Below, piece by piece: positions 52,187-60,982 of a stretch of 64,000 bases of DNA (positions within the stretch are counted from its first letter, which is position 1; the number at the start of each line of letters is the position of its first letter). The DNA is from an uncultured Fibrobacteraceae bacterium (GTDB taxonomy: Bacteria; Krumholzibacteriota; Krumholzibacteriia; LZORAL124-64-63). The position numbers were made by a program, and so were the translations under genes. The DNA is taken from the NCBI GenBank assembly GCA_964524645.1, contig CAZGEC010000023.1:618-64617 (forward strand). The letters are read 5' to 3'. The notes beneath the pieces were generated by a model. The model ran no database searches, was not told the DNA's origin, and saw only the letters and a program-made list of their open reading frames with translations.

Positions 52187-54892
52187 TTATCGCAGCAGGA
52201 GCATCTTGCGCGTCCGGGAGCGGCCGTCCAGCTCGAGCCGGTAGAGATAGGCTCCACTCGGCAGGGCGCGGCCCCGGTCGTCGCGGCCGTCCCAGTCGAC
52301 GGCGTGGGAGCCGGGTGACTGCCGGGACTGCACCAGCGTGCGCACGCAGCGTCCCGCCAGGTCGAAAACGGCCAGCCGGACCATCCCCTCCCGCGACAGC
52401 TGGTAGGCGATGGTGGTCCGCGGGTTGAAGGGGTTGGGCTGGTTGGCGGCCAGCACGAAGGGCGGGGTCGCCGGGACGGCCTCCGGCACGGCCGTGAGCG
52501 TCGAGAGCAGCGGGCGCTCGTAGACCCCGTTGCCGTGGGTCGCGGCGCGCAGTTCGTGGCTCGCCAGCGAGATCGTCAGGTCGATGACCATCACGGCTTC
52601 CGGCAGCCCCAGGCCGTAGTCGTCCCAGGTGTCGCCGCCGTCCCGCGAGACGAAGATCCCCAGATCGTTGCCCACGTAGACGTGAGAGGTCGCGAACGGG
52701 TCCACGACCACGCTGGAGGTGGGCACGTCGGGCAGGCCCGCGCCGATGTCGTCCCAGGTGTCGCCGCCGTCCAGGGACCGGAACACGTGCGAGGTGCCGA
52801 AGCCGGAGGCGGTCAGGAAGACGATGTCGGGATCGAAGGGATGGATGCACAGCCCCACGAGGTAGCGGTCCGGCAGGGTGCCGGTGACGTTCTGCCAGGA
52901 GGCGGCCCCGTCGGTGGTGCGGAACACGCCGGCACGCGTGACCGTCGGGGCCGTCGTCACGTAGACCCGCTGGGGATCGGTCAGCGCCACGTCCAGGGAG
53001 AGCGCCGGGTTGCCGTCCAGGTCCTGGTTGGCGTTGGTCACGCTCCAGTTCACGCCCCCGTTGATGGACTTGTAGATACGGCTGCGGCCGGCGTAGATGG
53101 TGCCGGGCGCCTGCGGGCCGCTCACGGCGTAAGGCGCGATGAAGCCCGTGGTTCCCTGTTCGGGCGGCGTGATCTCGAACCAGCTCGCACCGGAGTTGGT
53201 GGACTTGAAGAGCATGAGGTACTGGGCCGTGCCGTAGAGCGTGCTGTCGGTCACGGGATCGATGGCGGCCCAGCCGCCGTCTCCCCCGATCAGGCGATAC
53301 CAGGCATCCAGGCCGACGTAGAGGCCGGTGGAGTTGTCCTGCATGCCGCCGATGGCCCAGCTGGAGTCATGCCAGGAGCTGCAGAAGCCGGGATAGAACT
53401 GCGCGGTCTGCAGGCCGCCGTTGCAGCCAGCGAAGGTCTCGCCGCCGTCCAGCGAGCGGAACACGCCCCCATCGTTGGCGAGGTAGATCACGTCGTGATC
53501 CACCGGGTGGAAGACGAGGTCGTGGTGGTCGGCGTGGGAGAAGCTGGGCGGCCCCTCGGGTTCGCCGGGCAGCACGAGGCCGAAGTAGGCGGCCTCCCAG
53601 TCCGACTTCTGCTGGAGGTTCGCGCCTCCCGCGGTGGACTTCCAGACGTCCACGCCGACGGCGATCACGATGCTCGGGTCGTCCGGGTGGATCGCCACGT
53701 CGTGGGAGAACCAGCCCTGCCAGAGGGAGTAGTCCTGGCTGGAGGGACGGGTCCAGGTGTCGCCGTTGTCCTCGCTGCGGACGAGCCAGGTGGCGTTGCC
53801 GCCCAGGCCGCCGTTGCCGATGCTGGCCATCACGACGTTGGGCTGGGACTCGCAGATCGAGAGCAGCGCCTTGCCCCGGTAGATGCTGGGCACGATGTAG
53901 AGCTGCTCCATCTTGGTCCAGCTCTGCCCGCCGTCCAGGGTGCGGTACAGCCCGTGGCCCGGGCTGTTCAGGTTGCCGCAGGCGGCGAACACGGTGTCCG
54001 TATGGGCCGGGTTGATCACGATGTCGGTGGTCATGACGACAGCGTGCACGTGTTGCCAGGTGAGGCCCGCGTCCCCGGACCTGTAGATGCCCTCGGTCGT
54101 GCCGGCCCAGACCACCTCCGGGCGCTTGGGATCGACGCGGATCACCTGCACGCCCCGCTCCTGATGGTAGGACCAGTCCAGGCTCTTCGCCCAGGTCCGC
54201 CCGCCGTCCTCGCTCTTGAGGATGCCGATGCCGTAGCTTCCCCGGGCCAGCCGCTCGGTGATGCCGCCGGTCGAGCTCTGGTAGCCGTAGACCTCGCCCG
54301 TCCCGATGTACAGCACGTTCGAGTCGCCGGGGGCGAAGGCGATGGCGCCCACGCCCGGCACCGGGTGACCCGTGGGCACGTACTCCCAGGCATCGGCGCC
54401 CACGCCGGCGGTGAAGCTGCGCCAGAGCCCGCCGCTGGCCGCGCCCGCGTAGATGGTGCGGGGATTCTGGGGATTGCAGGCGAGCGCCAGCATGCGGCCG
54501 GCGATGTTGCGGGGACCGATGGGCCGCCAGGGCCGTGCGCCGCGCCCCTTGGCCTGCGGCTCGCGGAACCTGGTCTTGACGAGGTCGAAGGCCTCGCTGT
54601 AACCCCGGGCGGGAAACGTGTCGCGGGGGTAGGCGCGCTGGCCGGCCCAGTAGACGAGGGACTGCAGGGCGCCGGAAGTGCGATGCGGCTCGCCGGCGGA
54701 TTCCTCCCGGCCCTCGTCCTCCCGGATGACCGGATTCAACCGCGCCGGCAAGGGACCAGGATGGGCCACGCCATCCCGGGATCCGGCCGTCGGCTCGGTG
54801 AGCGGTGAGGCGGGGGACAGGATCAACCAGGAGAAGACCGTCAGACCCAGCAGCGAAGCGAGGAGCACGGCCAGCTTGCCGAGGTGCTTCAT
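52187..54892 (-). CDS. Secreted BNR/Asp-box repeat (sortilin/VPS10-like) protein with FlgD-Ig/T9SS-like C-terminal domain
   Basis: Many SxDGGxTW repeats, HADHH, NDGGVFRS, ATHGNG; PNPFNP...SGAYLYRL C-terminal domain. Confidence 0.85.
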   Translation of the reverse strand: MKHLGKLAVLLASLLGLTVFSWLILSPASPLTEPTAGSRDGVAHPGPLPARLNPVIREDEGREESAGEPHRTSGALQSLVYWAGQRAYPRDTFPARGYSEAFDLVKTRFREPQAKGRGARPWRPIGPRNIAGRMLALACNPQNPRTIYAGAASGGLWRSFTAGVGADAWEYVPTGHPVPGVGAIAFAPGDSNVLYIGTGEVYGYQSSTGGITERLARGSYGIGILKSEDGGRTWAKSLDWSYHQERGVQVIRVDPKRPEVVWAGTTEGIYRSGDAGLTWQHVHAVVMTTDIVINPAHTDTVFAACGNLNSPGHGLYRTLDGGQSWTKMEQLYIVPSIYRGKALLSICESQPNVVMASIGNGGLGGNATWLVRSEDNGDTWTRPSSQDYSLWQGWFSHDVAIHPDDPSIVIAVGVDVWKSTAGGANLQQKSDWEAAYFGLVLPGEPEGPPSFSHADHHDLVFHPVDHDVIYLANDGGVFRSLDGGETFAGCNGGLQTAQFYPGFCSSWHDSSWAIGGMQDNSTGLYVGLDAWYRLIGGDGGWAAIDPVTDSTLYGTAQYLMLFKSTNSGASWFEITPPEQGTTGFIAPYAVSGPQAPGTIYAGRSRIYKSINGGVNWSVTNANQDLDGNPALSLDVALTDPQRVYVTTAPTVTRAGVFRTTDGAASWQNVTGTLPDRYLVGLCIHPFDPDIVFLTASGFGTSHVFRSLDGGDTWDDIGAGLPDVPTSSVVVDPFATSHVYVGNDLGIFVSRDGGDTWDDYGLGLPEAVMVIDLTISLASHELRAATHGNGVYERPLLSTLTAVPEAVPATPPFVLAANQPNPFNPRTTIAYQLSREGMVRLAVFDLAGRCVRTLVQSRQSPGSHAVDWDGRDDRGRALPSGAYLYRLELDGRSRTRKMLLLR

Positions 54893-55050: not shown

Positions 55051-57135
55051 GTGAAGCGGAGGGTTGGCTTCTGGGGGCTGCTTTTCGGGCTGGGACTTCA
55101 AGGTGGCCTGCCGGTCCAGGCGCTGCCGGCCCCGGCGGAGAGCGGAGCGACCTTGCCGGACGAGGCGGGGCCCTGGATCGTGACGGCGACGGGCGACACT
55201 CTCGACCTGACCCCGGAGATCCTGGTCACCGCCCCGCTGGTCCAGACCGCCGATCCCGAGCGGGTCCTGCTGAGCGAGTCCGTGATCGGGTCCCGGGGCG
55301 CCTGGACGGTCGCCGACGTGGGGCCGCTGCTGCCGGACACCCGCGTGGCCGTCAACTCGCGCGGCGAGACCCTCTTCATGATCCGTGGCGCGCCGGAGCG
55401 CCATGTCCGCCTCGAGCTGGACGGCATCCCCCTGGTCGTGCCCTGGGACGATCGTGCCGATCTAAGCACCATTCCCATCGATGCCATCGGTACCGTCCGC
55501 GCCGTGCGCGGCGTGGGCAGCGTCCTGGACGAGCCCGAGGCGCTGGCCGGCACGGTGGAGCTGCTGCCGGTGGAGCTGGATCGGGACGGTGAGCGGACCC
55601 GGCTGAGCGGGTACCTGGGGGAGATCGAGCTGCACGAGGGCCGGCTGCTGCACCAGCGGCGGTGGGGATCCTGGAGCCTCGTCGCGGCGCTGGCCCGTCG
55701 CGAGCGGCACGGCTTCCCGGTTCCCGAGGATCTGGATGCTCCCTTCAACCAGAGCGGCGGCCGCGTGCGCACCAACAGCGATCTCGAGCAGACCACGCTG
55801 CTGCTGCACGCGATGCACCGGCTGGGACGTGGCGGCCGTCTGCGCCTGATCTTCCAGGGAACGGACGGCTCGCGCGGCGTGCCGCCCGAGACGCACCTGG
55901 CCGAGGGCGCCCGCTTCTGGCGCTATCCCCTGCAACGCCGTGGCCTGCTCGGGCTCGCCCTCTCCCTGCCCCTGGACGGCGCCGCGCTCTGGAACCTGCA
56001 GGCCAGCGCGTCGGCCGATCTCTTCCAGCAGGACATCCGCTCCTTCGACGACGCCACCTACGGTGGCCCGCCCCTGGTGCCGGGCGTGGACTTCGAGCAG
56101 GACCGCGACGCCACCGCCTTCGGCCGCCTGCGGGTGACGCGCCAGCTCGGGAACGCGTCCGCCCTGGCCGTGCAGGGTCTGGTCCGCGCCACCCGTCATC
56201 GCGAGATCCTGGTGGTCGATGGGCCGCAGGAGCAGTACTCGCAGGTCCTGGTTTCCCTGACCGGCGAGCTGCGCACCCGGCTCGCGGACGCGTGGGAGCT
56301 GCAGACGGGCGCGGGATGGGAGAGCGCCGCCACGCCCCGAACGGGGGACAAGCCGGGCCGGGACGCCACCGATGCCGTCGTGCTGCAGCTGCGCCTCGCG
56401 CACCGGGTCACGCCGGGACTGCGCTTCCAGGGCAGCCTCTCGCGGCGCAGCCGCTTCCCCTCGCTGCGCGAGATGTTCTCCGGAGCCCTGGGCCGCTTCG
56501 TGCCCAATCCCGGCCTGGGACCGGAAAGGCAGGACCTGCTGGACCTGGGAGCCCTGGCGAACGGACGGCGCTGGACGCTGGCCGTGAGCGGCTTTGCCAG
56601 CTGGGTGAGCGGGGGGATCGAGAAGGTGGCGGTCTCGACCGGAACCCAGCAGTTCACCCGGATGAACGTGGACCGGCTGCGCACGCTCGGACTCGAGACG
56701 GTGGCGACCTGGCAGCCGCGGCGGGGCCTGGATCTCTCCCTGCAACATGCCGTGCTGCAGGCCCGGCGCCGCGTGGACGACGCCTACGACGGGGCCGCCG
56801 AGGATCGTCCCGGCTGGCTGACCACAGTGGCCGCCACCTGGCACGCCGCACCCGGCCCTCTGCTCCGTCTCGAGTTCGAGGGCGTGGGTCCCCGCGAGTC
56901 GGCCGATGTCACGGATGCGGAGGACGGGCTGCATCGCCTGCCGGCGCAAGTCCGCTGGAACCTGCGCATCGGCTACGAGCTTGGCCGCCCGGGGGGCCGG
57001 AGCCTGGGTGCGGAGATCTCGTGCCGGCTGGATAACGTCTTCGATCAGCGCCTGGATTCGCAGGTGGGCCTTCCCGAGCCGGGACGCACCTTCCTGGCCG
57101 GGGCGAGCCTGCAGTGGGACCGGCCCGCACGCTGA
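55051..57135 (+). CDS. TonB-dependent receptor
   Basis: TonB-box-like EILVTA; plug (IRG, LDGIP, I..V.AVRG); barrel strands; RFPSLRE; LDNVFD, PGRTF near the C-terminus. Confidence 0.88.
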   Translation: MKRRVGFWGLLFGLGLQGGLPVQALPAPAESGATLPDEAGPWIVTATGDTLDLTPEILVTAPLVQTADPERVLLSESVIGSRGAWTVADVGPLLPDTRVAVNSRGETLFMIRGAPERHVRLELDGIPLVVPWDDRADLSTIPIDAIGTVRAVRGVGSVLDEPEALAGTVELLPVELDRDGERTRLSGYLGEIELHEGRLLHQRRWGSWSLVAALARRERHGFPVPEDLDAPFNQSGGRVRTNSDLEQTTLLLHAMHRLGRGGRLRLIFQGTDGSRGVPPETHLAEGARFWRYPLQRRGLLGLALSLPLDGAALWNLQASASADLFQQDIRSFDDATYGGPPLVPGVDFEQDRDATAFGRLRVTRQLGNASALAVQGLVRATRHREILVVDGPQEQYSQVLVSLTGELRTRLADAWELQTGAGWESAATPRTGDKPGRDATDAVVLQLRLAHRVTPGLRFQGSLSRRSRFPSLREMFSGALGRFVPNPGLGPERQDLLDLGALANGRRWTLAVSGFASWVSGGIEKVAVSTGTQQFTRMNVDRLRTLGLETVATWQPRRGLDLSLQHAVLQARRRVDDAYDGAAEDRPGWLTTVAATWHAAPGPLLRLEFEGVGPRESADVTDAEDGLHRLPAQVRWNLRIGYELGRPGGRSLGAEISCRLDNVFDQRLDSQVGLPEPGRTFLAGASLQWDRPAR
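56652..56667. repeat. Intragenic copy of the 16 bp palindrome (GTTCACCCGGATGAAC)
   Basis: Exact reverse complement of 18556..18571 and 48568..48583. Confidence 0.7.
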
Positions 57136-57348: not shown

Positions 57349-58161
57349 TTAGCCTTCCAGGAAATCCGCCAGCGCCGCCACGAACAGGTCCGGCTGGTCG
57401 ATGAAGGGCCAGTGTCCCGCGGGAGAGATGCCGAGCCAGTCGATGCCCGCCGCCCCGAGCAACTCCCGGGAGCGCTGACAGGCGCCGCCGGGCACGCCGG
57501 CCAGATAGCGGGTGGGCACGGGGAGGGCGGCCAGACGCCGGGCCAGGTCCTCGCGTTCGGAGGCGGTCACCAGCTCCCGGCTGTTGCGATGGTAGGCTCG
57601 CGGATCGGCCAGACACATGCTCGCGTGGTAACCCCGCTGGGCGGGATCGGTGAGGCCCTGGCGAAAGACCATCTCGCGTTGCTGCTCGAAACCCCGCCGC
57701 ACGAACATCGCGAGGGTCTGCTGGGCAACCTGGCCGCTGAACGTGCAATCGCCGAGGGACTTGTTGCCGTCCACGTCCACCAGGCCGCGCACCAGGCCGG
57801 GATGTCGTTCGCAGAAGAGCAGACCGGTCACCCCTCCCATGCTGTGACCCACCACGACGACCGGCGCCGCCTCGCGAACGGCGGGACAGGTCCGCAGCCA
57901 GTCCGCCAGCCAGTCCGCCTGCTCCCCGAGACCCAGCGGCTCGTTGCGCCAGGGGCTGCGCCCGTACCCCGGCAGGTCAGGGACGAGCAGGCGCCAGGTC
58001 CGCAGCCAGGGGTGACCGAACAGATGTTCGAAGCAGAGGCCCGATTCCCCCAGGCCATGGATCCAGAGCAGCGAGCCGCGTCGAGAGGCCACGTCGCGAT
58101 CACGGACGAACATGCCATGCTCGCAGCGATGCTCGCATGAGACGCCGTGCATCTCGGGCAT
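57349..58161 (-). CDS. Alpha/beta fold hydrolase
   Basis: IHGLGES, PDLPGYGRS, GHSMGG, AGHWPF; RBS GGGAGG. Confidence 0.9.
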   Translation of the reverse strand: MPEMHGVSCEHRCEHGMFVRDRDVASRRGSLLWIHGLGESGLCFEHLFGHPWLRTWRLLVPDLPGYGRSPWRNEPLGLGEQADWLADWLRTCPAVREAAPVVVVGHSMGGVTGLLFCERHPGLVRGLVDVDGNKSLGDCTFSGQVAQQTLAMFVRRGFEQQREMVFRQGLTDPAQRGYHASMCLADPRAYHRNSRELVTASEREDLARRLAALPVPTRYLAGVPGGACQRSRELLGAAGIDWLGISPAGHWPFIDQPDLFVAALADFLEG

Positions 58162-58327
58162 CGAGTCCGCCTCCCTTGCCGGAGCCGGCGGGGCCCATTC
58201 CACTCTCCCCGCTCATCCTTCAGTATGATACCCTGGCGGTCCGGCGGCAAATGGACACCGGTGTCCGTCCGGGCCCCAGCGGCGGCCCGGGCGCCTTACC
58301 GGTCTACCCATCATGAGGAGGTCTGAC

Positions 58328-60982
58328 GTGGTGCCCCGTCGTCGCGCCCTCCGGTTCTGGCTCGTGGTCCTGTCGCTGGCGGCCGGTCTCGTCGCGCCCC
58401 CCGACCCGATCGCGGCCGAGTCCCTCTCGGCGCTGTACAGCTACCAGTACGAGAGCGACTACCTGCCCACCACCCCCAGCGTCAGCGGCGGGGCCGTCGG
58501 CGGCTTCGCCAATCCGGCGGCCTTCGCCACGGGCGACCGCCTGGAGACGGCCTTCTGGTGGAACGACCGCGGCCTCGAACCGAACACCCTGGACAACTGG
58601 GGCTTCGCCATCGGACACCATCTCGGTTTCGCCTTCAACCACCAGACGCTGGGGACCGCCCACGACGTCACGCACGTGGACGACTACCTGCTCGCCCTGG
58701 CCCTCGGGAACCGTCGCAATCACTTCGGCCTCGGTTACCGCTGGTCCCGCGGAGGCTCGGACCGCATGCCGCGCGAGGACGCCCTCGTGCTCGGCCTGAT
58801 CGAGCGTCCCAACCGCTACTACTCCTTCGGCATCTCGGCCCTGACCTCCGTGGAATCGGACACGCTGCTGGGACTGGTGGACATGGGATTTCGCCCGCTG
58901 GGCAGTGATCTGCTGACCGTCTTCGGGGACTACATCCTGGCGGGCGGCGGCTATCCGTCCGCCGGGCGCTGGGGGGCGGGTGTGGAGATCCGGCCGCTGG
59001 CCGGCCTGCACCTGGGGGTCAAGTTCCGCGGCGTGTCGGGAACGGACGAAGACTATCGCTTCGTCTTCAACGTGGGTGTCACTTTGGGCGGCTACGGCTT
59101 CCACGTCCTGCCCAGTTACGACGGGGAGCGAGACAGGAACGAGACGACCTTCCTGTTGCGCACCGGCGCCTCCTATCCCAGCCTGCCGTTGAAGCCGGAC
59201 CTGCTGCCGCAGCCGGCGCGCTGGGTGCCGATCAACCTCGAGGGCAAGCGGATCACCTACCAGACGTACCGCTGGTTCGAGAAGAAGCGGGTGGCCTGGC
59301 TGGACCTGGCCCGTTTCCTCGATGCGCTGCGTGACGACGAGCGCGTGGCCGGGGTGGCCCTGAATCTCGCCGGCACGAGCATGCGACCTTCCATCGCCTG
59401 GGAGCTGCACGGCAAGCTCATGGACCTGAAGGACGCCGGCAAGGAGATCGTGATCCACATCGACCGGACCGGCATGCTGGGCTTCGCCGTGGCGTCGGTC
59501 GCCGACCGGTTGACCCTGGATCCCCAGGGCCAGCTCATGCTGACCGGGGTGTCGCTGAAGCGCACCTACCTGAAGGGCACGCTGGACAAGCTGGGAGTCG
59601 GCTTCCAGGCGTTCCGGTACCTCCGTTTCAAGTCGGCCATGGAGGTCTTCTCGCGCACCGACATGAGCGCGGCCGACCGCGAGCAGCGGCAGGCCGTCGT
59701 CGATGCGTTCTACGGCACCGTGCGAGACGAGGTGAGCGAGGGCCGCCCGATGCAGCCGGCCCGGTTCGACTCGGTCGTGAACGACCAGGCCATGGTGATC
59801 GCGCCGGTGGCCCTGCGTCTGGGGCTGGTGGACGCCCTGGCGCGCTGGCCGGACGTACAGGACTGGCTCGCCGAGCATCGCGGCGGTCGCTTCTGGATCC
59901 CGCCGCGCGAGGGACGCTTTCGCAGCTACCGCGAGGAGGTCTGGGGCCCGCTACCCAGGATCGTCGTCGTCTACGCCGTCGGCGAGTGCGCCATGGACAC
60001 CGGCATCAAGGGACGGGCCACCTCTGCGTACCTGCGGGAGCTGGCCCGGGACCCGGAGGTGGCGGCGGTCGTGCTGCGGGTCGATTCTCCGGGGGGCGAT
60101 CCGCTCCCCAGCGACCTCGTGGCTGCGGCCGTCCGCAGGCTGCAGAAGGCCGGCAAGCCGGTCATCGTCAGCCAGGGCGACGTGGCAGCCTCGGGGGGTT
60201 ACTGGATCAGCATGGACGGCGACGCCATCCTGACCACGCCGTTGACCATCACTGGCTCCATCGGCGTCATCGCCGGCTGGTTCTGGGACGACGGGATCGG
60301 CGCGAAGCTGGGGCTGAGCGCCGACGGCGTGGCCCGGGGGGAGCATGCCGATCTCTTCAGCGGCCTGCGCTTCCCGCTCCTGGGCCAGACCCTGCCGGAG
60401 CGGCCGCTGGATACGGAGGAGCTGGAGCTGGTTCGCGCGCTCATGCTGGAGCTGTACGACGAGTTCGTGGCCAAGGTGGCGGCCGGGCGGCATCTGGACG
60501 AGGACCGGGTGTTCGAGCTCGCCGAGGGGCGGGTCTGGATGGGGGACGCGGCGCTGGCCCGCGGCCTCGTCGATGCGGTTGGGGGACTGTCGGACGCCAT
60601 CGCCCTGGCCCGCGAAAAGGCCGGCCTCGCGGCGGACGCCGAGGTGAAGATCGTCGAGTACCCGCCGCGCCCTCTCTTCCCCTGGCCGCACTTCGGCCCG
60701 GAACTGCCGCGTCTCTTCGGCCTGCTGCGGTCCGCCGCCGCCCACCTGGACGGCGCCGGCGACGATCTCACCGCCCTGGCAACCCTGTCCGCGGCGGATG
60801 GCGGCGCGGAAGGGATCGCGCCGATGGCGTCGGCGCTCGGGGAGGTCGCGAATTCCGTGCCGGAGGACGAGGACCCCGATCCCGACCTGCTCTATTTGCG
60901 GATCCTCGCCCGCTCGGCCGGAGCGCCCGTGCTGGTGATGCCGCCGGGCCTGCGGCCGGAGGTCGAGGACGCGAGGCGCTGA
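58328..60982 (+). CDS. sppA: Signal peptide peptidase SppA (S49) with an N-terminal beta-barrel-like domain
   Basis: RBS GAGGAGG before GTG 58328; S49 motifs RFKSA, LRVDSPGG, VAASGGYW, TGSIGV, GRVW.G; the preceding ~260 aa are amphipathic beta strands with an NPA motif. Confidence 0.88.
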   Translation: MVPRRRALRFWLVVLSLAAGLVAPPDPIAAESLSALYSYQYESDYLPTTPSVSGGAVGGFANPAAFATGDRLETAFWWNDRGLEPNTLDNWGFAIGHHLGFAFNHQTLGTAHDVTHVDDYLLALALGNRRNHFGLGYRWSRGGSDRMPREDALVLGLIERPNRYYSFGISALTSVESDTLLGLVDMGFRPLGSDLLTVFGDYILAGGGYPSAGRWGAGVEIRPLAGLHLGVKFRGVSGTDEDYRFVFNVGVTLGGYGFHVLPSYDGERDRNETTFLLRTGASYPSLPLKPDLLPQPARWVPINLEGKRITYQTYRWFEKKRVAWLDLARFLDALRDDERVAGVALNLAGTSMRPSIAWELHGKLMDLKDAGKEIVIHIDRTGMLGFAVASVADRLTLDPQGQLMLTGVSLKRTYLKGTLDKLGVGFQAFRYLRFKSAMEVFSRTDMSAADREQRQAVVDAFYGTVRDEVSEGRPMQPARFDSVVNDQAMVIAPVALRLGLVDALARWPDVQDWLAEHRGGRFWIPPREGRFRSYREEVWGPLPRIVVVYAVGECAMDTGIKGRATSAYLRELARDPEVAAVVLRVDSPGGDPLPSDLVAAAVRRLQKAGKPVIVSQGDVAASGGYWISMDGDAILTTPLTITGSIGVIAGWFWDDGIGAKLGLSADGVARGEHADLFSGLRFPLLGQTLPERPLDTEELELVRALMLELYDEFVAKVAAGRHLDEDRVFELAEGRVWMGDAALARGLVDAVGGLSDAIALAREKAGLAADAEVKIVEYPPRPLFPWPHFGPELPRLFGLLRSAAAHLDGAGDDLTALATLSAADGGAEGIAPMASALGEVANSVPEDEDPDPDLLYLRILARSAGAPVLVMPPGLRPEVEDARR

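What the first reader, a model, noticed from the sequence alone, without database searches (positions are those of the whole stretch)
58328..60982. SppA peptidase fused behind a PorV/FadL-like beta-barrel domain
Seen: after the signal peptide, ~260 aa (about 58420..59180) start with GGFANPAAF and continue as about a dozen short amphipathic strands (NWGFAIG, HFGLGYRWS, YYSFGISA, WGAGVEIRP, LHLGVKFR, YRFVFNVGVTLG). Tandem S49 domains follow, with the Lys (RFKSA) and Ser (AASGGY) dyad intact. Known: canonical SppA is anchored in the inner membrane by an N-terminal helix; an NPA motif ahead of a 14-stranded barrel is typical of the FadL family, which includes PorV, the T9SS CTD shuttle. Inference: an outer-membrane barrel-protease fusion. 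In a genome rich in CTD-tagged and WGxxK-tagged proteins it could capture and cleave C-terminal sorting signals (PorV-like and PorU-like roles in one chain). This role is speculative.
Basis: partly seen in the sequence, partly recalled or inferred. Interest (0 to 1): 0.62.

Follow-up and report, generated by a model that had tools for sequence, protein, structure and literature searches.

The report
SppA protease on an outer-membrane barrel
This gene fuses a small outer-membrane barrel of the FadL/PorV type to a complete SppA protease; the fusion is a conserved, uncatalogued family in several uncultured phyla, probably places the protease under the outer membrane, and shows no evidence of reading secretion tags.

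Summary
The ORF at 58328..60982 (+) encodes a signal peptide, a ~250-aa N-terminal domain and a tandem S49 SppA with its Lys/Ser dyad intact.

AlphaFold2 models the N-domain (pLDDT 88.5) as 14 beta-strands behind a 42-residue segment that carries an invariant NPA motif. The top 50 Foldseek PDB hits are all membrane beta-barrels, nearly all bacterial outer-membrane proteins, led by FadL and PorV. A profile-profile comparison with this genome's own PorV/PorQ paralogues gives 87-94% probability, against 0.03-0.1% for controls. No Pfam or NCBIfam model covers the domain.

The fusion is a real family:
- 198 clusters at 50% identity.
- One copy in at least 111 of 151 genomes of the phylum.
- Also found in WOR-3 and Calditrichia.
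- Its S49 halves form one clade, separate from the helix-anchored SppAs. This genome also has two of those.

The proposed role of capturing and cleaving sorting signals is not supported:
- The predicted extracellular loops are at most 10 aa, whereas PorV binds cargo with long loops.
- Conservation lies on the predicted periplasmic turns.
- The protease should face the periplasm.
- The genome has its own porU-porV pair elsewhere.
- Gene neighbours are not T9SS genes.
- The WGxVKxLYR tag does not co-occur with the fusion (13/28 genomes with it, 13/20 apparently without).

Best reading: an SppA anchored in the outer membrane and facing the periplasm.

The parts
58316..58321 (+). Shine-Dalgarno AGGAGG, 6 nt before the GTG start at 58328
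   Evidence: Read directly from the sequence. Gene callers use this start (P0002, 884 aa).
58328..58417 (+). Sec signal peptide: an Arg-rich n-region, a hydrophobic core FWLVVLSLAAGLVA, and a likely cleavage site after PIAA
   Evidence: Read from the translation. AlphaFold models a helix at residues 9-25 followed by a low-confidence stretch. The cleavage site is inferred, not predicted by a dedicated tool.
58418..58543 (+). N-terminal 'hatch' segment (residues 36-77) with an invariant NPA motif (N67-P68-A69, nt 58511-58519)
   Evidence: NPA is invariant in 15 diverse and 45 closer homologues. It lies at mature positions 32-34, about where FadL has N33 (PDB 2r4n is titled 'FadL mutant N33A'). 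It aligns with the WNPAG motif of the PorV/PorQ paralogues. Only short helices are modelled here, not strands.
58544..59164 (+). 14-stranded beta-barrel (residues 78-284) with short loops; conserved RP motifs on predicted periplasmic turns T3, T4 and T5
   Evidence: AlphaFold2 pLDDT is 88.5 and pTM 0.85 for the domain alone, and the same 14 strands appear in the full-length model. The top 50 Foldseek hits are all membrane beta-barrels, led by FadL and PorV.
59165..59215 (+). Pro-rich linker GASYPSLPLKPDLLPQP
   Evidence: Read from the translation. pLDDT dips here and family conservation is low, 0.21.
59216..59947 (+). First S49 domain of the tandem SppA; it carries the general-base Lys (K440, nt 59630-59632, RFKSA)
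   Evidence: Pfam PF01343 has two matched stretches. The own-genome scan places one at window 59426-59881. The alignment to E. coli SppA 3bez is, and K440 is invariant.
59948..60664 (+). Second S49 domain; it carries the nucleophile Ser (S627, nt 60191-60193, GDVAASGGYWIS)
   Evidence: Supported. S627 and its neighbours are invariant. Foldseek matches the full model to E. coli SppA 3bez/3bf0 at E 1e-34 and TM(target) 0.82.
60665..60982 (+). C-terminal tail (residues 785-889) plus the stop codon. Confidence is low apart from some helices. The start (EYPPRP) and the end (PP..LP..W in the consensus) are conserved.
   Evidence: pLDDT is below 50 for residues 813-854.

Best explanation
The gene encodes a Sec-exported protein of about 850 aa once mature. 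A 14-stranded outer-membrane beta-barrel of the FadL/PorV superfamily, with an NPA-bearing N-terminal plug segment and very short surface loops, takes the place of the N-terminal inner-membrane helix of canonical SppA.

The barrel has an even number of strands and its first strand starts at the periplasmic face. Its last strand therefore ends in the periplasm. From there a Pro-rich linker of about 17 aa leads to a complete tandem-S49 Ser/Lys protease.

The protease probably assembles like E. coli SppA into a tetramer, here held under the outer membrane instead of on the inner membrane. It most likely degrades hydrophobic or unfolded peptides near the outer membrane as an envelope housekeeping task, working beside the two ordinary helix-anchored SppA paralogues in the same genome. 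On this reading the barrel serves mainly as an anchor and plugged scaffold.

Shown: the domain architecture, the intact catalytic dyad, family conservation, and a separate clade for the fused form. Predicted: the barrel fold. Inferred: periplasmic orientation, oligomeric state and substrates.
For: - Architecture: two S49 domains and an intact dyad. The S49 part matches solved E. coli SppA at Foldseek E 1e-34 and TM(target) 0.82.
- Barrel: 14 strands in two AlphaFold2 runs, with pLDDT 88.5 and 83.9. The top 50 Foldseek hits are all membrane beta-barrels; FadL scores E 3.7e-6 and PorV 6h3i_F has TM(query) 0.61.
- Remote homology: hhalign against nine PorV/PorQ paralogues of the same genome gives 94.2% probability (global, E 2e-8) and 86.6% (local), with the NPA motifs aligned. 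The reversed-profile and TonB-receptor controls give 0.03-0.1%.
- Topology: predicted extracellular loops are 2-10 aa with mean conservation 0.36. Predicted periplasmic turns score 0.63 and carry invariant RP motifs.
- Family: 198 clusters at 50% identity, almost all 800-900 aa; the short ones run on into S49 sequence. There is one copy in 111 of 151 genomes of the phylum.
- Separate lineage: the fused S49 halves sit on one side of a single branch apart from the helix-anchored SppAs (support 94/89; core clade 100/100).
- Paralogues: the genome also has two canonical SppAs of 574 and 579 aa, each with an N-terminal hydrophobic helix.
- Precedents: canonical SppA is a tetramer anchored by an N-terminal transmembrane segment with its catalytic domain in the periplasm (PMC9360617). 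A FadL-family barrel serving as a structural subunit rather than a transporter is known in Bacteroidota (BamG, PMC12611786).
Against: - No coordinates were available. I could not check that the NPA segment sits inside the barrel, nor where the S49 domains lie relative to it.
- No curated FadL or PorV HMM detects the domain. Single PorV paralogues do not match it significantly.
- The invariance of NPA could mean that the barrel is a working channel and not only an anchor.
- No substrate is known.
- Gene neighbourhoods give only faint hints of an envelope-stress context: PDZ proteins, an ECF sigma factor and a DegP-like gene in some loci.
Confidence: 0.6

Rival explanations
1. Channel-coupled protease. 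The barrel is a working FadL-type channel. It passes hydrophobic peptides or lipopeptides from outside or from the outer membrane to the S49 chamber docked beneath, where they are destroyed, either as nutrients or for detoxification.
For: FadL-family proteins are the best structural matches, and NPA is invariant at the same mature position as FadL N33. The periplasmic turns are the most conserved part of the barrel and could form the interface with the protease.
Against: The surface loops of 2-10 aa leave little room for a FadL-like external binding site. FadL releases its substrates sideways into the membrane, not into the periplasm (PMC12611786). The lateral opening could not be examined. 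FadL-type barrels are also known as pure scaffolds, for example BamG.
Confidence: 0.2
2. The barrel captures C-terminal sorting signals (T9SS CTDs or the WGxVKxLYR tag) as PorV does, and the S49 domains cleave them as PorU does.
For: The barrel is remotely related to the PorV/PorQ family. Every fusion-bearing genome tested has SprA. The genome has many CTD- and tag-bearing proteins.
Against: - The loops that PorV uses to bind CTDs are missing (PMC10994853).
- The protease is predicted to face the periplasm, whereas CTD removal happens at the cell surface.
- A separate porU-porV pair exists.
- No T9SS machinery genes lie nearby in nine loci.
- The tag is absent from 15 of 28 fusion-bearing genomes and present in 13 of 20 genomes without a detected fusion.
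- Two near-complete SprA-positive genomes (G003, G025) have only a canonical SppA.
Confidence: 0.07
3. Surface display. The barrel acts like the barrel of an inverse (type Ve) autotransporter, and the C-terminal S49 protease is threaded out to the cell surface.
For: The domain order (N-terminal barrel, C-terminal passenger) matches that of intimin and invasin. Their barrels appear among the Foldseek hits at ranks 16 and 33. The Pro-rich linker could span a pore.
Against: The barrel is predicted to have 14 strands, not 12, with its own N-terminal plug segment occupying the position of the FadL hatch. TM scores to invasin and intimin (0.43 and 0.35) are lower than to PorV and FadL. There is no LysM-type periplasmic domain.
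Confidence: 0.08
4. The N-domain is a soluble periplasmic beta domain (a sandwich or propeller), not a membrane barrel.
For: No curated outer-membrane protein HMM matches it.
Against: Two confident AlphaFold2 models show 14 consecutive antiparallel strands. None of the top 50 Foldseek hits is a soluble fold. Many strands show alternating hydrophobicity. The profile matches the PorV/PorQ family.
Confidence: 0.03

Closest known systems
E. coli SppA (protease IV, 67K type; MEROPS S49; PDB 3BF0/3BEZ)
   Same: Both have tandem S49 domains. The Lys lies in the first domain and the Ser in the second, and both align residue for residue. The folds match at Foldseek E 1e-34 and TM(target) 0.82. Both are exported to the periplasmic side.
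   Different: The N-terminal inner-membrane helix is replaced by a signal peptide plus a 250-aa outer-membrane barrel. The score on the SppA_67K equivalog model is 269 bits, below the 311-bit cut-off. The fused form is a separate clade from the helix-anchored SppAs.
PorV/PorQ family of T9SS outer-membrane proteins (NCBIfam NF033709; PorV in PDB 6H3I and 8GL6)
   Same: Both are FadL-like barrels with an N-terminal NP[AG] motif. PorV 6h3i_F gives the best TM score (TM(query) 0.61). Profile-profile probability is 87-94%. Both occur in T9SS-bearing lineages.
   Different: No HMM match at all. The domain is about 70-100 aa shorter and lacks the long extracellular loops that bind cargo CTDs. It is not next to porU, and it is fused to a protease.
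FadL/TodX/TbuX hydrophobic-compound channels (Pfam PF03349)
   Same: Both have 14 strands and an N-terminal segment of about 42 residues with NPA at the same mature position. FadL entries are the top Foldseek hits.
   Different: PF03349 does not match. The domain is much smaller, about 250 aa against 420 aa, with minimal loops. The lateral opening could not be assessed.
OmpA-type architecture (N-terminal barrel plus C-terminal periplasmic domain)
   Same: Same logic: an N-terminal outer-membrane barrel anchors a C-terminal domain in the periplasm.
   Different: OmpA has 8 strands and a peptidoglycan-binding domain. This protein has 14 strands and a 590-aa protease.
BamG of the Flavobacterium johnsoniae BAM complex (PMC12611786)
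   Same: BamG is a FadL-family barrel in an FCB-group bacterium that is used as a structural subunit and not as a transporter.
   Different: BamG is a free-standing protein within BAM. No link between this fusion and BAM has been shown.

Membership tests
SppA, 67K type (S49) | Two S49 domains in one chain | tested here: met
   PF01343 matches in two stretches at E 1.1e-59. TIGR00706 SppA_dom scores 179 bits, above its 155-bit cut-off. The own-genome scan finds both domains.
SppA, 67K type (S49) | Ser nucleophile in the C-terminal domain and Lys general base in the N-terminal domain | tested here: met
   K440 and S627 align to the E. coli SppA motifs in 3bez. Both are invariant in 45 homologues.
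SppA, 67K type (S49) | Score above the curated equivalog cut-off (TIGR00705, 311.45 bits) | tested here: not met
   The score is 268.8 bits. The fused clade is separate from canonical SppA.
SppA, 67K type (S49) | N-terminal transmembrane helix anchoring the enzyme in the inner membrane | tested here: not met
   It is replaced by a cleavable-looking signal peptide plus a beta-barrel. The two paralogues in the same genome do have the helix.
FadL family (PF03349) | Match to the family HMM | tested here: not met
   No hit at E <= 10 for any of 15 diverse N-domains. PF03349 finds a different gene in this genome, on contig C3.
FadL family (PF03349) | 14-stranded outer-membrane barrel | tested here: met
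   Met by prediction only: 14 DSSP strands in two AlphaFold2 models, with FadL as the top Foldseek hit.
FadL family (PF03349) | N-terminal hatch with a conserved NPA motif | tested here: met
   NPA is invariant at mature positions 32-34. That the segment lies inside the barrel could not be verified.
FadL family (PF03349) | Lateral opening or kink in the barrel wall | not testable with these tools
PorV/PorQ family (NF033709) | Match to the family HMM | tested here: not met
   The NF033710 genome scan does not hit this gene. No NCBIfam hit for any of 15 N-domains.
PorV/PorQ family (NF033709) | Detectable remote homology | tested here: inconclusive
   hhalign probability is 94.2% (global) and 86.6% (local), against 0.03-0.1% for controls. 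Single sequences are not significant.
PorV/PorQ family (NF033709) | Long extracellular loops that bind cargo CTDs (PMC10994853) | tested here: not met
   All seven predicted extracellular loops are 2-10 aa. The PorV-family insertions fall at loops L3, L4 and L5.
PorV/PorQ family (NF033709) | Genomic or phyletic coupling to T9SS | tested here: inconclusive
   SprA is present in all 48 genomes tested, whether or not the fusion was detected. No T9SS machinery genes lie nearby.
Inverse autotransporters (type Ve) | 12-stranded N-terminal barrel with the linker threaded through it, plus a periplasmic LysM domain | tested here: not met
   14 strands are predicted, there is no LysM domain, and TM scores to invasin and intimin are lower. 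Threading itself is not testable here.

The most novel reading that the evidence does not exclude
Four FadL-like barrels surround the mouth of a tetrameric S49 dome under the outer membrane. Together they form a single machine that takes hydrophobic peptides (outer-membrane protein fragments, lipoprotein stubs or exogenous lipopeptides) out of the membrane or from outside, through the barrels, and degrades them in a closed chamber. This would be an outer-membrane counterpart of signal-peptide clearance at the inner membrane.
Probability: 0.2. Interest if true: 0.75.

Novelty: new variant of a known kind. Interest (0 to 1): 0.5.

Why it matters
SppA is known only as an inner-membrane-anchored peptidase that clears signal peptides. 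A conserved, single-copy version tethered to the outer membrane by a FadL/PorV-type barrel is present in most genomes of at least one uncultured phylum and in several others. That implies a proteolytic task at the inner face of the outer membrane that has not been described.

It also adds a second example, after BamG, of FCB-group bacteria re-using FadL-type barrels as scaffolds. And it defines an N-terminal domain family that neither Pfam nor NCBIfam models.

The finding removes one candidate for the unknown reader of the WGxVKxLYR tag.

Tried and rejected
- **Sequence searches with the N-domain.** Pfam, NCBIfam and PDB sequence searches found nothing meaningful. The only hits were DUF7359 at E 0.03 and a ribosomal protein at E 0.04.
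- **First genome-contig scan.** The scan with the diverse alignment A2 failed because no stretch was conserved enough. I repeated it with a closer alignment, A3.
- **Apparent stand-alone N-domains of 300-460 aa.** I rejected most as truncated fragments because their C-termini run on into S49 sequence. P0072 and P0135 end differently and remain unresolved.
- **T9SS co-occurrence.** The test is uninformative because SprA is universal in the sampled genomes.
- **Tag co-occurrence.** There is no association. The 'fusion-negative' set contains false negatives: G036 has a divergent fusion that the HMM missed. The robust half of the result is that 15 of 28 fusion-bearing genomes have no tag.
- **Conserved operon partner.** None was found across nine contexts.
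- **Literature.** Searches for an outer-membrane or barrel-fused SppA found nothing.
- **Model coordinates.** They were not available in the Python box, so I could not inspect the plug position, lateral opening or domain packing.
Full report

An ORF runs from 58313 to 60982 on the + strand, 889 aa from the first ATG. The GTG at 58328 is preceded by AGGAGG with a 6-nt spacer. It is also the start used for the identical 884-aa database protein P0002. Residue numbers below count from the ATG at 58313.

The translation begins with an Arg-rich stretch and a hydrophobic core, then PIAA|ES. This looks like a Sec signal peptide. I inferred the cleavage site and did not compute it.

Pfam finds two Peptidase_S49 stretches at E 1.1e-59. 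NCBIfam finds SppA_dom above its cut-off (179 against 155 bits) and SppA_67K at 269 bits, below its 311-bit cut-off. The motifs RFKSA (K440) and GDVAASGGYWIS (S627) align with YKSAVEPF and GGMAASGGYWIS of the solved E. coli SppA, PDB 3bez. Both residues are invariant in 45 homologues.

Residues 36-310 match nothing in Pfam, NCBIfam or PDB sequences.

**2. What is the N-terminal domain?**

Searching with residues 36-310 found 49 clusters at 90% identity, nearly all 817-889 aa and all carrying S49. An exhaustive phmmer search of 1.84 billion representatives found 198 proteins at E <= 0.001, again mostly 790-900 aa. The shorter hits I read are mostly fragments whose C-termini continue into the start of the S49 region. 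The domain is therefore essentially always fused to SppA.

AlphaFold2 on the full protein, with a 45-sequence alignment, gave pLDDT 83.9 and pTM 0.83. It shows 14 consecutive beta-strands at residues 78-284, most with pLDDT near 90. An independent run on the domain alone, with 15 diverse sequences, gave pLDDT 88.5, pTM 0.85 and the same 14 strands. These are preceded by a 42-residue segment containing only short helices.

Foldseek of the domain model against the PDB returned only membrane beta-barrels in its top 50, nearly all bacterial outer-membrane proteins:
- E. coli FadL (3pgr, E 3.7e-6, TM(query) 0.58) and FadL 2r89 rank first.
- PorV from the T9SS translocon follows (8gl6_F; 6h3i_F with TM(query) 0.61 and TM(target) 0.50).
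- Further FadL entries, TbuX, CymD, OmpG, and the invasin and intimin barrels come after.

The full-length model matches E. coli SppA at E 1e-34 and TM(target) 0.82.

**3. Is it related to FadL or PorV, or does it only resemble them?**

In an alignment of 15 diverse N-domains (23-50% identity to the window's own), N-P-A at mature positions 32-34 is invariant or nearly so. PDB 2r4n, titled 'FadL mutant N33A', marks the same position in FadL. That this Asn belongs to FadL's NPA hatch motif is from my own knowledge (van den Berg 2004; Hearn 2009).

The same genome holds at least nine PorV/PorQ-family barrels with the motif ...GMGGA...WNP[AG]GL. Four that I scanned pass NF033709. A profile of these nine, compared with the N-domain profile by hhalign, gave these results:
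- 94.2% probability in global mode (E 2e-8).
- 86.6% probability in local mode (E 4.5e-6).
- The NPA motifs aligned with each other.
- 0.03-0.1% for the same profile reversed, and 0.1% for the neighbouring TonB-dependent receptor.
- No single paralogue was significant on its own.

I read this as remote membership of the FadL/PorV superfamily but not of any curated family.

**4. Topology and where the conservation lies**

FadL-type barrels have an N-terminal tail inside the pore (PMC12611786). By my inference, strand 1 then starts at the periplasmic face. With 14 strands the chain ends in the periplasm.

Under that assignment the seven extracellular loops are 10, 2, 10, 5, 8, 7 and 5 residues long, with mean conservation 0.36. 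The periplasmic turns have mean conservation 0.63 and carry invariant or near-invariant RP motifs: RPNRY, RPLG and RPLAG. The insertions that PorV-family proteins have relative to this domain fall in the hatch and in loops L3, L4 and L5.

PorV binds cargo CTDs with long extracellular loops that reach into the SprA pore (PMC10994853). This barrel lacks that apparatus.

A Pro-rich linker (GASYPSLPLKPDLLPQP) joins the last strand to the first S49 domain. The protease should therefore hang in the periplasm from the outer membrane.

**5. How widespread and how old is the fusion?**

Source names attached to homologues include Candidatus Eisenbacteria, Krumholzibacteriota, Latescibacterota, Gemmatimonadetes (MAG labels), WOR-3 and Calditrichia.

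An HMM of the N-domain hits 111 of 151 genomes of the window's phylum. Nearly all have a single copy in open frames of about 830-960 aa. This is a lower bound: one 'negative' genome, G036, has an 827-aa SppA with a divergent N-domain that scores only 29 bits.

A maximum-likelihood tree of the S49 regions places all 27 fused proteins on one side of a single branch (support 94/89). Twenty-six of them form a 100/100 clade, apart from 11 helix-anchored SppAs taken from the same genomes. A single old fusion event is the simplest reading.

The window's genome also encodes two canonical SppAs of 574 and 579 aa, each with an N-terminal hydrophobic helix. The fused form is therefore an extra, specialised paralogue.

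**6. Testing the proposed sorting-signal role**

- The genome has a real porU (429 bits, above the cut-off) directly followed by a PorV-family gene on contig C6.
- SprA is present in all 41 sampled genomes of the phylum, 21 with and 20 without a detected fusion. It is also present in all 7 more distant fusion-bearing genomes, including the WOR-3 one. The fusion has not been found outside T9SS lineages. But T9SS is universal in this sample, and PorV-type barrels are themselves confined to such lineages. The test cannot discriminate.
- At least two near-complete SprA-positive genomes (G003, G025) have only a canonical SppA.
A degenerate DNA pattern for the tag plus a stop codon finds 19 copies in this genome and none with the reversed control pattern. 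Only 13 of 28 fusion-bearing genomes have any copy, against 13 of 20 genomes without a detected fusion. The fusion is not the dedicated reader of that tag.
- Neighbourhoods in nine loci differ and contain no T9SS machinery genes. Faint recurring items are a YceI gene with an unannotated ~392-aa gene (two loci), PDZ proteins and an ECF sigma cluster (two or three loci), and a DegP-like gene (one locus).

**7. Most likely mechanism**

The protein is an SppA-type Ser/Lys protease anchored in the outer membrane and facing the periplasm. A plugged, loop-poor FadL/PorV-type barrel does the job that the N-terminal helix does in canonical SppA.

Canonical SppA is a tetramer held on the inner membrane, with its catalytic domain in the periplasm (PMC9360617). 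By analogy the fused form would assemble under the outer membrane and degrade hydrophobic or unfolded peptides there. The architecture and the intact dyad are shown. The fold is predicted. Orientation, oligomeric state and substrates are inferred.

The main rival is that the barrel is a working channel that feeds the protease. The invariant NPA motif and the conserved periplasmic turns fit both readings.

**8. Novelty**

No Pfam or NCBIfam model covers the N-domain. Sources label the proteins 'protease-4', 'S49 family peptidase', 'signal peptide peptidase SppA' or hypothetical. Full-text searches found no description of an outer-membrane or barrel-fused SppA.

It is a new architectural variant of a known enzyme, with moderate interest. 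It is not a new kind of system, and the more exciting T9SS-linked reading is not supported.

**Limits**

- No multimer prediction was available.

Noticed in passing
own genome, contigs C4, C5, C6, C7, C8, C13, C17, C34, C39 (loci L007-L011, L013, L043-L045): The genome carries at least nine PorV/PorQ-family barrel paralogues with the motif GMGGA...WNP[AG]GL. Only one of them sits next to porU. This is a large expansion of unknown purpose.
   Followed up: partly
L007:2491-3642 (own genome, contig C6, just downstream of porU-porV): The gene after porV encodes a large protein with an HEFGHALGL zinc-metalloprotease motif. It may be a further component or a cargo of the T9SS cluster.
   Followed up: no
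L067 (genome G036, C4:176076-177482): A divergent member of the fusion family, 827 aa. Its N-domain scores only 29 bits on the family HMM and has NPAG in place of NPAA. Its S49 half is a long branch lying between the fused and canonical clades. Family f4 of the phylum seems to carry this divergent form.
   Followed up: partly
genomes G046, G017, G031, G013, G045, G123: In genera g2, g4 and g9 the stop-to-stop open frame around the fusion gene is 1,200-1,470 aa instead of about 870 aa. This could be an extra fused domain, or just long open frames in GC-rich DNA.
   Followed up: no
P0123 (615 aa): One database protein joins PAS sensor domains to a partial copy of the N-domain (residues 356-549). 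It is probably a gene-calling or assembly chimera.
   Followed up: no
L038:10602-12428 and L041:10396-12218: In two distant homologue loci the fusion gene lies next to an unannotated ~392-aa gene and a YceI (lipid/polyisoprenoid-binding) gene. The strand arrangement differs between the two loci.
   Followed up: no
L071 and L072 (about 7.6-10.6 kb), L070-L072 upstream, L046:9095-10525: Envelope-stress-type genes recur near homologues: an ECF sigma factor followed by an unannotated ~205-aa gene and a DUF4097 gene, a ~300-aa PDZ protein, and in the WOR-3 locus a DegP-like Trypsin_2-PDZ protease.
   Followed up: no
window 60665-60979: The C-terminal ~105 aa of the protein are modelled with low confidence. 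Family-conserved motifs occur at the start (EYPPRP) and the end (PP..LP..W in the consensus). B. subtilis SppA binds its own C-terminus in the active site (PDB 4kwb title), so this tail might be self-processed.
   Followed up: no
window 55051-57135 (+) and 57349-58203 (-): Upstream neighbours are a TonB-dependent receptor (Plug plus barrel) and a divergently transcribed alpha/beta hydrolase. A similar hydrolase lies about 1.2 kb upstream of the homologue in L070, with one gene in between.
   Followed up: partly
window 52187-54892 (-): A 901-aa sortilin/BNR-repeat protein ends in a FlgD_ig-type CTD (Pfam E 1.4e-9). This agrees with earlier notes that the window holds T9SS-type cargo.
   Followed up: partly
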